From positions 92,256,001-92,320,000 of the forward strand of contig OZ024742.1 of the NCBI GenBank assembly GCA_964016885.1: a DNA stretch of 64,000 bases. The letters run 5' to 3'. The notes below the pieces were generated by a model. It ran no database searches, was not told the origin of the DNA, and was given only the letters and a program-made list of their open reading frames with translations. The position numbers and the translations under genes are program-made. The DNA is from Eledone cirrhosa (taxonomy: Eukaryota). Below, in pieces: positions 1 to 62,741 of the stretch (the first letter of the stretch is position 1; each line of letters begins with the position of its first letter).

Positions 1-71
1 CCAGTTCCTGTACACAGCTAAGTATTCTATAAGTCTCTAGCTGTGTCATTCTCGATGAAAGCACTGGATAT

Positions 72-115
72 GTAGTCCTGATGAATTCTAACAAGAATGA
101 AACGCGTAGACTTAC
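72..115 (+). ncRNA. Minimal type I hammerhead ribozyme, copy 1
   Basis: GUAGUC-CUGAUGA-AUUCU-aaca-AGAAU-GAAA-CGCG-UA-GACUUAC: intact core, 5-bp stem II, palindromic stem III, stem I with one bulge. Confidence 0.9.
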
Positions 116-382
116 TTCCCTTGCTTTTATCGAGAATCTAATTGTAATACGTGACGTATTCTATTCTATAGCGATTAGGTCTTCAAAATGTTTATTATAA
201 ACATACAGAATATTTTCGAATATTCTATGTCTATATTCACATATATATCGCTATTTCAGAGCATTTATTCCAATTTCTAATTTCTGCCGGACCGGCAACC
301 GCTCTTTCAAACCAGTTCCTGTACACAGCTAAGTATTCTATAAGTCTCTAGCTGTGTCATTCTCGATGAAAGCACTGGATAT

Positions 383-426
383 GTAGTCCTGATGAATTCT
401 AACAAGAATGAAACGCGTAGACTTAC
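383..426 (+). ncRNA. Minimal type I hammerhead ribozyme, copy 2
   Basis: Same sequence as 72-115, offset +311. Confidence 0.9.
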
Positions 427-693
427 TTCCCTTGCTTTTATCGAGAATCTAATTGTAATACGTGACGTATTCTATTCTATAGCGATTAGGTCTTCAAAAT
501 GTTTATTATAAACATACAGAATATTTTCGAATATTCTATGTCTATATTCACATATATATCGCTATTTCAGAGCATTTATTCCAATTTCTAATTTCTGCCG
601 GACCGGCAACCGCTCTTTCAAACCAGTTCCTGTACACAGCTAAGTATTCTATAAGTCTCTAGCTGTGTCATTCTCGATGAAAGCACTGGATAT

Positions 694-737
694 GTAGTCC
701 TGATGAATTCTAACAAGAATGAAACGCGTAGACTTAC
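694..737 (+). ncRNA. Minimal type I hammerhead ribozyme, copy 3
   Basis: Same sequence as 72-115, offset +622. Confidence 0.9.
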
Positions 738-2539
738 TTCCCTTGCTTTTATCGAGAATCTAATTGTAATACGTGACGTATTCTATTCTATAGCGATTAG
801 GTCTTCAAAATGTTTATTATAAACATACAGAATATTTTCGAATATTCTATGTCTATATTCATATATATATATATATATATATATATATATATATATATAT
901 ATATATAAACATATATAATATATATATTACATATATGTGTGTACATGTGTTTATATTGAAGGTTGTTTCCTTTATATTTTCTACAAACAAAACAAACAGT
1001 ACACCAGTACACACTCTCTTCGTGAAAAAAACCTGCTTTTAAATTCTATAAATTTCCCTTAGTACTTCTTTACTTTAGTACCAATTAAATTTAGCATTTC
1101 CAAAATGTCTTGCAAATTACAACAACTGAAATTGCATATTCCGGTCACTAAATACCAGGTTGGATATAATTTGCATATATCGACGCCAATTAAAGACATT
1201 ATATATTACTTTTAGTAATGTTATAACTAGTTTGCACTCATATCAATGCAAAAACATTTATGCGTAAGATCTGGTTAAAGAAAGAGAGTAACTGCTTGCG
1301 CACTATTTCTATTGAATGTGTTTATGTGTGTTTCTTTGTATGTTTGTTACAAATCTTTCTATAAAATATTTGATTTTTTACATGCAGAGAGAGAAGAATA
1401 TTTGCTACATTGATTTGAATACGGTTGAAAAGAATGAGATTATATATGAATGTGTGAACTTCTTCCATTTGCTTCTGCTGCAGCTGTTATTATTGCCGTC
1501 ATTCTTCCTCTTCTTCTTTCCTGCCTCATTATCTCATGTTTTACTTCGCTCCGTACGTTGAGAAAGAAATCTTGATAGTTTGCCAGTTTCGGAACTATTT
1601 TGTTGTTTAGTATGTTGCCGAGATAACCATGACCCCAAAGAACTCGTCAGATCCCTTTTTAAGCCTCTTTGAGTTCATACCAATTCTTGAGAAAACAAGA
1701 AAAAGATAATTATTTGAAAATATCATTGAAAGTGGTATTCGGCCAACAGTTGATAGTGGAGGGAGGAAGTACAACCAGCAAGGGTGAGAATTTTTCCATT
1801 GAAAGCCTTTCCCTTCACACCTTTCACTGCCGACTTTCATCTTTTCCCAATCAACAACACAACAGCATTAGTAAAAATATTTACAACACATTTCTGAGGA
1901 ACAAAAACACCGAAGGTGAGAGGAAGATTAACAACAACATTTCCAGTGATAAGAGCAACAACGGCAGCAACAGCAACAATGCCACCCTAACAGATTAACA
2001 AGATGGCCAAAAACCACATTAAGCGACACTACATTACAGTCACTATGTCCATTGCGGTAGGCAATAAATGCATCTACGACAGTAGAAAAGGCGTAATGTT
2101 AGAATGGATCATCCGTCGGTTTCGACGATTAGAATCCAAATGTTCGATCAACTGAACGTTCTAACTTCAGTAATTATGCAGTATATCATTGCAGGTAGAA
2201 TCTCTAGATGTCCGGCTTTTGTGACCCTTTACAGAAAGGTGCACAAATGTGTATCTATTCAAGAATGAACGCAGTGTTTCTTTAAACATATGTATAAATA
2301 CATGGCCTTGATCTTTTGATGGGGTTTTGGGGACGCCGTCATGATATGCAACGTGTCTTGGGCATTTTAAACCTGGCCTCACAAAACCTTCAATTCAACC
2401 TTTTAACATTTCTGCCAATTCGCGGACATATAATTACATGCCAGCAAAATACTTTATAGTTGCGTCTAAGATGCTTTTGTATCTGTTTCTGTTGAAGTAT
2501 TGGGGTATATGTGTTCATGGAATAGTTTATTTGTATATA

Positions 2540-59734: not shown

Positions 59735-59890
59735 TTAGACACAAGGCCAACAATTTTGTGGATGGGAAAGTCGATTAAATCGACTCAGTACATTACTGGT
59801 ACTTTAGTTTATCGGCGGGCTTTTAACTTGGAACTTAAAGGGACGTAACTCTATGCCATAATGCATGTTGTCCAAGGCTCTACCGCTACT
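59735..59890 (-). mobile_element. SINE family A, diverged
   Basis: Reverse complement of tail, core and head. Confidence 0.7.
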
Positions 59891-60071
59891 GCTAATATAT
59901 ATTTAAAATATCATTGCTAAACGAAATGCTTGATTTAGGTATTTCAAAACATATATTTTCCGGTAATTCAAGGAAGACAAATTTAGATTCTTTACAATTC
60001 CAATTATTGCTTGACTTCGTCAAACTATATATTTTCGCCTGTTTCAAATTCCAGCAGAAAGCAGGGGAAGC

Positions 60072-60112
60072 ATTTTCCTGATGACGGCCAGAGCCAGAAA
60101 CACGTTGGCAGT
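60072..60112 (+). ncRNA. Minimal type I hammerhead (diverged copy)
   Basis: CUGAUGA-cGGC-caga-GCCa-GAAA-CACG-UU-GGCAGU. Confidence 0.7.
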
Positions 60113-60407
60113 TGTCCCCCACTGGCTCTGCTGGAATCAGCTAGACGGCGTGAGCCATCAGCTTTTCAATATTCATAGCTAGAATGCTTTCCAAACTTTT
60201 ATTCATAAACATACTCTATATCATTAGATATACGAAATTCACATACTTATATATGTAGAGCTATGTCGGAGCGAAAACTTTAATTCTACTTTTAAGCTGG
60301 GCCAGCTTAACAGCTCCATACGCAAAGGAGGCTAATCAGCCCACCTACATAGCCGAAAAACTATATATTTTCGCCTGTTTCAAATTCCAGCAAAGAGGAA
60401 GGGAAGC

Positions 60408-60448
60408 ACTGTCCTGATGACGGCCAGGGCCAGAAACGGGTTGGCAGT
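60408..60448 (+). ncRNA. Minimal type I hammerhead
   Basis: ACUGUC-CUGAUGA-cGGC-cagg-GCCa-GAAA-CGGG-UU-GGCAGU; 6-bp stem I. Confidence 0.8.
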
Positions 60449-62741
60449 TACCCCCCACTACTTCTGTCGGAATGGAATCCGCTAGATGGCGCGAGCATTC
60501 AGCTTTTCAATATTCATAGCTAGAAGGCTTTCCAAATCTTTATTCGTAAATATACCGTATATCATTAGATACACGAAATGTATATACTTATATGTATAGA
60601 GCTATGTATGTCGGAGCAAACAACTTTAAAATGTGTGTGTGTGTGTGTGTGTGTGTGTACGTGCGTGTGTGTGCGTATGGGTGTGTGTGTGAAAGAGAGA
60701 GAGAGAGAGAGTGTGTGTGTTTGTAAATAACTAGACATACATACAACACAACCAACGTAGACTAATGAATATAAAGGGACATTTGTCATGCAGGCTTATA
60801 TGTTTACACATTCTGCTTTCATAAACATCTCTATGTTTTCATACATATACTTGCACAGTAGAGTAGATGTAGAGAGTATATAGATATAAATACATATGTG
60901 CGTCCTTAAAAAACATACCGTCTACAGACGAATGAATGAATGCAATTGATGGAAAATAAAAACAATAACAACCACAGCAACAGCAACAATAACAATAATG
61001 CCAATGACAATTATATTCCTCTCCAACAACAACCAAGGAAACGTCTTACATGATACGTGCAAAAGTGTAATATGTAATTTGTATATATTTATATATATGT
61101 ATGTGTGTATGAACACGCACACAGATATACACAGACACACAGACATACAGACATACAGACACTCACACACACACACACACACACACACACACACACACAC
61201 ACACACACACACACACACACACACACACATATATATATATATATATATATATATATATATATATATATATATATATATATATATATATATATAAGCGTGC
61301 GTGCATAAAAATAAAATGCTCAAACATCTGCATCTAATCAGGCACATGCGTATTATGCCTTGAATTGGCAGGGATCTATTTTAAAATGTTTTCCTCTTTG
61401 GTCTCTCGTCTTCGGAATAGTTATTCCTACTGTAGAAACAAAAACTTAGATATCACCCCACACCTACCAGTTATTTTCCTACCATCTACTACATGCCCTG
61501 CCTTTCACTACCCCATCACTTCTTCCATACCCTGCATCCCCGAACGACACCACCAGCTGGGTCGCAGCTGTTCTCTGTTAAACAAACGTATTTTGGATTC
61601 TTGAGCATTGCACATGATTCCAGACAAATATCTTGTGGTTTATGTTATGTTTCTCTCTCCTCATTCCCTTCTTCTTCCTTCTTCTTCCCGTTTATGCTCT
61701 GCCTGCCCCCCCCCCCCCACCCCCTCCTTTTCTTCTTCTGTCTCTTTCTCCTCGTGAAGTTAAGTCGGAAATGTAGAATGTTGAAAGACGAGTTCCAGGT
61801 CTGTACTCCACCCTTGAAATTTTTCTTTGTTTATAACAACGAGCTTTCTTTCTCTCTTTCTTTCTCTCTTTCTTTCTTTCTTTCTTTCTATCGCCTTTTA
61901 GCTCTCCACCCTGCTTCCTCCTCCCTCTCCCTCACTATCTCTCTGCAATATATGGTAACTCGATTGAGGAAAATGTCTTCTGTAATTCCATTCACATCTG
62001 ATTAAGTAGACAGGTAATCAAAGACTTTCCAGCCATGACTATCCCATCTATTTTAACATGAGATAAATAAAGATGTACTACTACATTATCCAGTGTGTTC
62101 TTCCACTATCTCGACTGTAATTTCATTACTTTAGACGGTAAATTGGCAGAGTTGTTAGAGCGTCGGACTAAATGCCGCGGTATTTCTTCCGGCTCTCTGC
62201 GCTCTGCTTTTAAATCTCATCAAGGTCAAATCCTCCTTTCCTCCTTTCGTGATCAATAAATACAGCATCAGTATAGATACAGGGGATTGGTAGAGTTGTG
62301 AAAAAATCGGGTGGGATGCTTTACCGCACCGTATTCAGTTCTGTGCATACTGTAATGAAAATCATTATGTAATGATCAGACCAATGTACCATAGTTTCAT
62401 TGATCTGATATTATGATCGGATTCCCCCTTTTCTCCCTTTTCTTCGTCTCGTGGTTGATATTTCTAGCAGGCTGGGTGACCTCAGTAATTTATTTTTATA
62501 GGTGCTGGAATGATAAAAGCAAATTTTTCCTCGGAAGGATTTAAACTCAGAACGTAAAAGTCCGTAAATTGATTACTGCAGAGAATTTTGTTTGATGTTC
62601 TCACAATTTTGACAATCCACCGACCTGAGACACTCATAATAAGACGGCAATATCCAGTGAGGTTTTTCTCAGGTTCACTCTACAGAGTCTATTTAGACAG
62701 TGTAGCTGAATGTTTGTTTAATAAAACTTATATTTGTGAAC

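What the first reader, a model, noticed from the sequence alone, without database searches (positions are those of the whole stretch)
1..60630. About 17-20 hammerhead motifs of several families in 64 kb, most linked to microsatellites
Seen: cores at 78, 389, 700, 14057(-), 20832, 22330, 23068(-), 23129, 32743(-), 35169, 37158(-), 39427, 57675(-), 57690, 58231(-), 60078 and 60414, plus remnants near 17400, 36148 and 36820. Their flanks are mostly unrelated to each other, yet most sit in short cassettes bounded by (TA)n or in fold-backs. Inference: one autonomous Penelope-type machinery serves many small ribozyme-bearing passenger families that colonise, and possibly lengthen, (TA)n arrays. If this density is genome-wide, the ribozyme count would be very large.
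Basis: partly seen in the sequence, partly recalled or inferred. Interest (0 to 1): 0.88.

Follow-up and report, generated by a model that had tools for sequence, protein, structure and literature searches.

The report
Twin hairpins set Penelope copy ends
The ribozyme motifs are real and sit in the cut-off tail ends of many different Penelope-like jumping genes, plus a few small non-coding hitch-hikers, that land in TA repeats; a pair of small bulged hairpins lies just behind the two points where Hydra-type copies end and likely tells the enzyme where to start copying, one start per DNA strand.

Summary
All 20 listed sites belong to hammerhead-bearing repeat families (13 families), but only 9 of the 17 listed cores keep a complete fold; two more were missed (47993, 51728). 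The window is ordinary for this genome: 128 motifs in 990 kb of sampled DNA versus 4-8 in controls, an estimated 3-5 x 10^5 genome-wide. They point towards a (TA)n within 350 nt downstream (100 of 109). 'One machine, many passengers' fails: 11 of the 20 sites are 3' fragments of seven protein-coding Penelope-like families (five Hydra-type, two Neptune-type); four families are non-coding tandem retrozymes. This much is known biology. Not found in print: (1) fold-back insertions carry one short and one long end (138 of 148); (2) in Hydra-type elements each end lies 0-13 nt before a bulged hairpin, present in 42 of 47 marine metagenome relatives with covariation (52 of 53); tail length tracks hairpin spacing; (3) two retrozymes carry both hairpins; (4) a U4-to-A core is fixed in one successful family. 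No RNA or cleavage evidence. The scan noted the same picture, hairpins included, on other pieces of this genome (seen only after my tests).

The parts
1..860 (+). 311-nt non-coding retrozyme array, hammerhead cores at 78, 389, 700 (palindromic helix III, dimer type); right arm of an inverted array that begins about 2.7 kb left of the window; ends at the short start site in (AT)n 861-936
249..266 (+). minimal form of the hairpin (GCUA...GAGC) behind the short start site of the 311-nt unit; again at 560
13985..14065 (-). decayed hammerhead of an old family (80-85% identity); family has a Hydra-type hairpin, no ORF directly linked
17381..17475 (.). fold-back remnant of Hydra-A 3' end: 3' half of a U3-A8 hammerhead; right arm runs into a Neptune-A 3' end
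17834..21078 (+). 5'-truncated young Neptune-type element (Neptune-A): inverted long-end arm 17834-17955, RT-EN frame open to 20545, hammerhead 20832 (2-bp helix I), short end in (AT)n
21095..22448 (+). 3' fragment of a second, GC-rich Neptune-type coding family (unit 4.7 kb), hammerhead 22330
22764..23378 (.). Neptune-A fold-back, long end left, short end right; hammerheads 23068(-) and 23129(+, cut at the core)
32540..32790 (-). copy with a dead core (32743); 3' stretch shared with the 336-nt retrozyme; intact relatives in L136
35042..35502 (+). about 519-nt non-coding retrozyme, hammerhead 35169 (GUG here, GUC in family), ends at long start site
35426..35451 (+). first hairpin (H1) of the 519-nt retrozyme
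36130..36182 (+). truncated hammerhead of the most abundant group (Hydra-B)
36765..36891 (.). Hydra-C fold-back, junction inside the ribozyme core; H1 at 36829-36848(+)
36918..39509 (.). Hydra-F fold-back, long end left, short end right; hammerheads 37158(-) and 39427(+), U4C; H1 at 37067-37034(-)
57613..57845 (.). Hydra-E fold-back, short end left, long end right; hammerheads 57676(-) and 57690(+), U4A core; H1 at 57762-57807(+)
57939..58465 (-). 467-nt non-coding retrozyme, canonical hammerhead 58231; H1 57995-57963, H2 58391-58373; its internal (AT)5 is (AT)18 here (58396-58431)
60010..60630 (+). old 336-nt retrozyme dimer, hammerheads 60078 (decayed) and 60414

Best explanation
The motifs are hammerheads from the terminal repeats of many Penelope-like retroelement families, most of them Hydra-type, and of a few non-coding retrozymes, inserted into (TA)n as short fold-backs that likely arise when both cut DNA strands prime copying, one at each of two internal start sites, which in Hydra-type elements are likely set by two bulged RNA hairpins. 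Shown: family identity, (TA)n targeting, two fixed ends per family, one short plus one long end per fold-back, variable inner junctions, hairpins 0-13 nt behind each end, hairpin covariation. Inferred: the protein (probably a dimer) binds the two hairpins, each cut strand anneals to a few A/U bases just upstream of a hairpin, the two cDNAs run towards each other and join where they stop. Because the ribozyme lies only 60-330 nt upstream of the ends, even heavily truncated copies keep it, often twice; that gives the density. The 467- and 519-nt retrozymes would be passengers of Hydra-type proteins because they kept both hairpins; their multi-unit arms imply a multimeric or circular RNA template.
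For: Coding partners: Neptune-A, 66 of 66 scored matches 100% identical without stops, 4.14-kb tandem unit, ribozyme 223 nt before the ATG; Hydra-A, 150 scored matches 96-100%, 3.53-kb unit; Hydra-B, -C, -E, -F linked to ORFs. 311-nt family: 15 of 15 loci TA-bounded, 14 inverted, arms of 0.7-16.6 units, fixed outer ends, scattered inner junctions. One short plus one long end in 138 of 148 inverted pairs over 17 families, 63 of 66 in the unselected sample. Hairpin behind the short end in 13 of 17 Hydra-type or retrozyme families, 0 of 5 others, background 3.7% (motif defined on these). Held out: behind the long end in 6 of 12 such families; upstream of the ORF in 42 of 47 distinct metagenome relatives versus shuffle mean 8.3, maximum 15; twice in 28 of 47, median spacing 64 nt, and six TA-ended copies break 0-11 nt before a hairpin. 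Pair after a 2-nt bulge Watson-Crick in 52 of 53 (32 C-G, 20 U-A; shuffles 27.2), no excess in other registers. End spacing versus hairpin spacing: 80/78, 89/90, 156/157, 90/90, 66/71, 89/87 nt. The published Hydra-1_Ajap consensus starts with both hairpins. Two internal start sites and extension of both strands were shown in vitro for a Poseidon element (PMC11167929).
Against: No RNA, binding or cleavage data. The 311/336-nt group and relatives have only a minimal first hairpin and no second one, yet follow the short-long rule, as do Neptune-type families that have no such hairpin; so the hairpin is not the general cause of the tail. Hydra-D and one Hydra-B read-through lack a clean second hairpin. 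Many recurrent ends have no hairpin behind them. Whole-hairpin stability beats shuffled interiors in only 21 of 33. The covarying hairpins come from related elements and two per contig, so they are not independent. The relaxed descriptor was tuned after viewing. Ten of 148 pairs break the rule.
Confidence: 0.7

Rival explanations
1. The twin hairpins mark the ends for another reason: they are a DNA-level site for the endonuclease that resolves the intermediate, or promoter or translation signals of the 5' leader, and the start sites only happen to lie beside them.
For: The tail was reported as needed for endonuclease recognition in Drosophila Penelope (as cited in PMC11167929); the four outer pairs are nearly invariant; both hairpins lie in the leader just before the ATG.
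Against: Loop length varies widely and a one-sided bulge with compensatory pairs is kept, which fits a single strand, not a duplex site; the short arm does not contain the hairpin at all, so it must act on the template; end spacing follows hairpin spacing from 66 to 156 nt; non-coding retrozymes keep both.
Confidence: 0.17
2. One autonomous Penelope-type machine serves many small ribozyme passengers.
For: Passengers exist; all families share target and architecture; a young intact Neptune-type ORF lies in the window.
Against: Seven of 13 families are coding elements with their own ORF; Hydra-type and Neptune-type proteins are unrelated enough that one does not retrieve the other by tblastn; 13 Hydra-type endonuclease clusters; ends differ by family (49 end families).
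Confidence: 0.04
3. The retrozyme arrays are satellites: a single Penelope terminal repeat landed and grew locally by unequal crossing-over, as the 2026 preprint's discussion suggests.
For: bioRxiv 10.64898/2026.07.22.740005, discussion; tandem arrays of up to 16.6 units.
Against: Units are 100% identical on many chromosomes; in 14 of 15 loci both arms of an inversion are multi-unit or partial, anchored at the two fixed ends in (TA)n with a random inner junction, the footprint of one insertion event.
Confidence: 0.08
4. The motifs are chance matches in AT-rich, repeat-rich DNA.
For: With two defects allowed, counts equal shuffles; Rfam has no hit.
Against: 128 versus 4 and 8 in controls, 109 in recurrent families versus 0; strand-oriented (TA)n link.
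Confidence: 0.01

Closest known systems
Hydra clade of Penelope-like elements (Craig et al. 2021, PMC8557442; passages, section 11 and supplement searches read)
   Same: [quoted passage not shown]
   Different: Described from few families, mostly cnidarian; here many families make up most ends. Tails are 65-160 nt, not 30-40. The twin hairpins and the strict short-long pairing are not mentioned in the text or text supplement.
Minimal hammerheads of Penelope-like elements (Cervera and de la Pena 2014, PMC4209133; parts 1-2 of 4 read)
   Same: Type I, palindromic helix III for dimers, extra base after A9, U3-A8 variant, 2-bp helix I variant, many families per genome, mostly solitary truncated copies.
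   Different: Counts there are 4,000-9,000 per genome; my estimate is 3-5 x 10^5 with a different, looser descriptor. A family-wide U4A core is not mentioned in the parts read.
Non-LTR retrozymes (Cervera and de la Pena 2020, PMC7229834, passages; Li, Clavereau, Pollet, bioRxiv 10.64898/2026.07.22.740005, abstract to discussion)
   Same: Non-coding tandem units of 300-520 nt with a type I hammerhead each; proposed to use Penelope-like proteins; up to 120,000 copies in axolotl.
   Different: Those papers argue from co-occurrence and terminal-repeat similarity; here the insertions show the Penelope footprint directly and two units carry the Hydra-type hairpins. Circular RNA is not shown here.
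Poseidon element PAc of Anolis (Frangieh et al. 2024, PMC11167929; parts 1-2 of 4 read)
   Same: Two internal start sites that define the tail, both strands cut and extended, AT-rich target, protein predicted to be a dimer, ribozyme cleavage not needed for insertion in vitro.
   Different: PAc starts inside one AC-rich stem-loop without homology to the target and with no strand difference in vitro; here there are two separate hairpins, starts at short A/U microhomologies, and one of each start per insertion.
Neptune/Nematis clades of Penelope-like elements
   Same: Neptune-A and the 22330 family have the CX2-5CxxC linker and C-terminal GIY-YIG; (TA)n bias is known (PMC8557442).
   Different: No tree was built, so Neptune versus Nematis is open; they lack the hairpin but follow the short-long rule.

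Membership tests
Hydra clade PLE | single ORF, RT with C-terminal GIY-YIG | tested here: met
   Hydra-A ORF of about 716 aa; Hydra-E and -F likewise; best database hit carries PF01541
Hydra clade PLE | DKT in place of DKG; RWK motif | tested here: met
   DKT present; RWR in place of RWK in Hydra-A, -E, -F, read by eye
Hydra clade PLE | CxCX5C linker, CxxC and CxH motifs, no CCHH | tested here: met
   read by eye in Hydra-A and -F
Hydra clade PLE | hammerhead in terminal repeat; (TA)n insertion | tested here: met
Hydra clade PLE | generally shorter than 3 kb | tested here: not met
   units of 3.53 and 4.2 kb; a tendency in the paper, not a rule
Hydra clade PLE | phylogenetic placement with reference Hydra proteins | not tested
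   no tree; the Hydra-1_Ajap consensus shares the twin hairpins
Neptune/Nematis PLE | CX2-5CxxC linker before a C-terminal GIY-YIG with CCHH | tested here: met
   Neptune-A ORF; linker and YVG also in the frameshifted 22330 family
Neptune/Nematis PLE | clade assignment by tree | not tested
   no reference proteins held
Non-LTR retrozyme | non-coding tandem units of a few hundred nt, each with a type I hammerhead | tested here: met
   311, 467, about 519, 336, about 363 nt; 32743 not shown to be tandem
Non-LTR retrozyme | expressed as circular RNA | not testable with these tools
   no RNA holder listed
Type I hammerhead | core CUGANGA (or U3-A8), GAAA, UH and three helices | tested here: met
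   5 strict, 11 relaxed in the window; family forms
Type I hammerhead | U4 in the core (Hydra-E, Hydra-F) | tested here: not met
   A4 in 17 of 17 distinct copies and 15 of 16; C4 in Hydra-F, a variant known from a viroid (PMC3088659)
Type I hammerhead | self-cleavage | not testable with these tools
   no assay

The most novel reading that the evidence does not exclude
Hydra-clade Penelope proteins load as a dimer on two conserved bulged hairpins of one RNA and prime one DNA strand at each, which explains the Penelope tail and fold-backs, gives a sequence rule for which retrozymes they carry, and has made this one of the most ribozyme-rich genomes known (3-5 x 10^5 motifs), with a third of its TA microsatellites bordered by a recurrent element end.
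Probability: 0.5. Interest if true: 0.75.

Novelty: new variant of a known kind. Interest (0 to 1): 0.55.

Why it matters
How Penelope-like elements, the closest relatives of telomerase among retroelements, choose their template and form their tail and inverted copies is open. A 25-nt transferable signal with a predicted start position makes this testable in one in vitro assay, would give the first sequence-level link between retrozymes and a specific partner clade, and could serve as a cargo tag for a TA-targeting integrator. The count shows that standard annotation (Rfam: no hit) misses a very large ribozyme population, and families that thrive with U4A or U4C cores bear on whether cleavage is needed at all.

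Tried and rejected
Rfam: no hammerhead at gathering score in the window or in 19 Hydra-type loci; the E-value list showed only microsatellite-driven matches in the 150 rows printed, 72 rows not shown. Two-defect descriptor: noise. Genome search with the Neptune-A terminal repeat returned nothing because common words are skipped. Sequencing runs: no RNA holder listed, which is no evidence on expression; the contigs laid are of unknown run kind and were not used as evidence. Idea that fold-back junctions cluster at the cleavage site: not supported, junctions are scattered. Core-like sites 3971, 51276, 57239/57489 and 59437 were checked and dropped (no fold, no convincing family). Partner of the 311/336-nt group and of 14057 not found. 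(TA)n lengthening: one of 21 read-through copies of the 467-nt unit has (AT)18 for (AT)5; a single case, slippage suffices. Print searches for novelty: plus text and supplement searches; none describes the twin hairpins, the short-long count or a natural U4A family. Not seen: figures, the preprint's supplements, non-text supplements of PMC8557442, and Lunse et al. 2017 on Penelope-linked hammerheads (recalled; not among the 10 listed), any of which could hold part of this. I searched octopus papers on a recalled hunch about the host; the host was not tested.
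Full report
Setting. The window is G000:C3:92256001-92320000 of a 3.0-Gb animal genome, 37% GC, with 104 tandem-repeat rows, mostly microsatellites. The host was not determined.

Observation. All listed cores are at the stated places. Rfam has no match at gathering score. My strict type I descriptor finds five motifs (78, 389, 700, 51728, 58231) against none in 12 block shuffles or the reversed window; at two defects it is noise. I therefore judged the weaker sites by their families. 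Other copies show complete three-helix forms for 14057, 22330, 35169, 37158 and 60078, 57690, 17400, 36148 and 36820 and 32743. A relaxed descriptor, tuned on these forms, gives 11 in the window against 1 reversed and 0-1 in ten shuffles; nine are among the 17 listed cores, two (47993, 51728) were missed. The 20 listed sites are 13 families.

Genome-wide. I took 99 stretches of 10 kb at round coordinates on the large contigs (one further request did not exist). With at most one defect: 29 hits in the first 400 kb (controls 7, 4, 4, 1) and 59 in the next 590 kb (controls 3, 5, 3). Relaxed: 128 in 990 kb against 4 reversed and 8 shuffled, 109 in 11 families seen at two or more loci. Bootstrap over loci gives 2.9-4.9 x 10^5 for the genome, 2.4-4.3 x 10^5 counting family hits only. 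The window (11 in 64 kb; 8 expected) is ordinary. Published counts I saw are 4,000-9,000 (PMC4209133), 5,000-6,000 and up to 120,000 (PMC7229834), with other descriptors.

(TA)n. The link has a direction: the array lies downstream of the ribozyme (23 of 29; held out 44 of 59 against 21.6%, p = 6e-18, upstream 22 of 59; 100 of 109). Independently of any ribozyme search, 330 of 1001 TA arrays abut an end that recurs at three or more loci, against 15 of 343 CA, 6 of 101 GA, 9 of 40 TATG arrays and 21 of 594 random places; 49 end families, a few of them other repeats or low-complexity flanks. Arrays beside an end are longer (35 against 25 nt), which does not separate choice from growth.

What the families are. 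The ORF at 17849-20545 is RT plus GIY-YIG with a Neptune/Nematis linker; 66 of 66 scored genome matches are identical and open; the unit is 4.14 kb and its two ends fall about 24 and 82 nt into the ORF. Sites 20832, 23068 and 23129 are its terminal repeat. Site 22330 ends a second, GC-rich, frameshifted family of 4.7 kb. A different protein turned up upstream of other families, with the Hydra-clade motifs of PMC8557442 section 11. Hydra-A (150 scored matches at 96-100%; 3.53-kb unit, U3-A8 ribozyme) gives 17400; Hydra-B gives 36148 and Hydra-C 36820; Hydra-F gives 37158/39427; Hydra-E gives 57675/57690; 47993 is linked by one locus only. Among 55 endonuclease pieces there are 13 clusters at 70% identity. 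So 11 of 20 sites come from seven coding families. Non-coding tandem units: 311 nt, 467 nt, about 519 nt, 336 nt, about 363 nt for 51728. 32743 is related to the 336-nt unit; 14057 is unassigned.

Architecture. Fifteen loci of the 311-nt family are all TA-bounded; 14 are outward-facing inverted arrays with arms of 0.7-16.6 units, outer ends at two fixed places and scattered inner junctions; by eye all 14 have one of each end (the automated count gave 12 of 13). Over 17 families, 138 of 148 inverted pairs have one short and one long end, 63 of 66 in the unselected sample. The tail at one end is described in PMC8557442, and PMC11167929 equates the two ends with two start sites of reverse transcription in vitro, both strands being cut and extended. 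The near-strict pairing implies that each insertion uses each site once, one per strand (inference). The ribozyme lies 60-330 nt upstream of the ends, so truncated copies keep it.

The hairpins. Just behind the short end, Hydra-type families and retrozymes share RCUC...GAGY (13 of 17; 0 of 5 others; background 3.7%). I defined the motif on these, so I tested it three more ways. Behind the long end it recurs in Hydra-A, -E, -F, one Hydra-B relative and the 467- and 519-nt retrozymes (6 of 12 with read-through copies), not in Hydra-D, another Hydra-B relative, the 311/336-nt group or Neptune-A. In marine metagenomes (77 loci, 56 with enough upstream DNA, 47 distinct) it lies upstream of the ORF in 42 of 47 against a shuffle mean of 8.3; 34 of 47 have a hammerhead-like core further upstream. 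It is double in 28 (29 by the script, one a double count), median spacing 64 nt, and six copies that end in (TA)n break 0-11 nt before a hairpin. In 53 distinct hairpins from 27 contigs, the pair after a 2-nt 3' bulge is Watson-Crick in 52 (32 C-G, 20 U-A; shuffles 27.2), the next two pairs in 29 of 48 and 26 of 35; other registers show no excess. End spacing follows hairpin spacing in six families (80/78, 89/90, 156/157, 90/90, 66/71, 89/87). Rfam has no model. The Hydra-1_Ajap consensus in the supplement of PMC8557442 begins with both hairpins, while text and text supplement never say hairpin. Against: stability beats shuffled interiors in only 21 of 33, and many end families lack the motif; Neptune-type families keep the short-long rule without it.

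Mechanism. Shown: many coding families, TA targeting, two ends, their pairing, hairpin position and covariation. Inferred: a protein dimer binds both hairpins, each nicked (TA)n strand anneals to a few A/U bases before a hairpin, the two cDNAs meet and join. Since the short arm lacks the hairpin, it must act on the template. Retrozymes with both hairpins would ride Hydra-type proteins; multi-unit arms need a multimeric or circular template, which I cannot tell apart. The driver of the 311/336-nt group is open. Ribozyme activity is untested; Hydra-E has A at position 4 in 17 of 17 distinct copies with all helices kept, a form I did not find in print (figures not held), and cleavage was dispensable for PAc insertion in vitro.

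Prior art and verdict. Penelope hammerheads, retrozymes as their derivatives (bioRxiv 10.64898/2026.07.22.740005) and TA targeting are known, so the headline is a large instance of a known system and the single-machine reading fails. The hairpin rule, the end pairing and the partner assignment are the new part. Earlier notes of this scan on other pieces of the same genome reached the same reading, one with the twin hairpins; I saw them after these tests and they are not independent support. Novelty: new variant of a known kind; interest 0.55.

Noticed in passing
window 17381-17575: A Hydra-A fold-back whose right arm runs straight into a Neptune-A 3' end: nested insertion with deletion, or a template switch between unrelated families.
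   Followed up: no
window 57613-57845; L263-L274: U4-to-A hammerhead core fixed across a successful Hydra-type family with all three helices kept.
   Followed up: partly
window 1-850: The 311-nt unit is held as a single 340-nt contig (one unit plus overlap) at low depth in three runs labelled as other organisms, and at very high depth in one run with a few dominant variants, one a base left out just after the cleavage site. Run kinds unknown; carry-over between libraries is as likely as transfer.
   Followed up: partly
window 58396-58431: The internal (AT)5 of the 467-nt unit is (AT)18 in this copy (1 of 21 read-through copies): an element-seeded microsatellite.
   Followed up: partly
window 13135-13308, 35588-35880, 58480-58560, 58727-58860: Further TA-bounded ends or fold-backs too short to include a ribozyme (Neptune-A end; two other families, one Hydra-type).
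   Followed up: partly
window 6156-9642 (-); 26960-27685 (+): A frameshifted non-LTR retrotransposon with RT and zf-RVT, and a separate RT fragment; not Penelope-like.
   Followed up: no
window 10860-11000, 12520-12720, 13640-13770, 17580-17760, 23700-23880, 32170-32530 and others: A very abundant short interspersed repeat, often sitting at element ends or inside them.
   Followed up: no
window 5172-5720 (+), 52870-53260: C2H2 zinc-finger-coding 3' end of a repeat associated with (TATG)n arrays.
   Followed up: no
window 48809-50875: A 2-kb CAT/CAC-rich tandem array, open in several frames.
   Followed up: no
L164:4002-5610 (-), L051, L167: A further Penelope-like family, about 25% identical to Neptune-A, with no hammerhead core found within 1.7 kb downstream of its endonuclease.
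   Followed up: partly
L026, L025: Different families stack in one (TA)n array, each new insertion landing beside the end of an older one.
   Followed up: no
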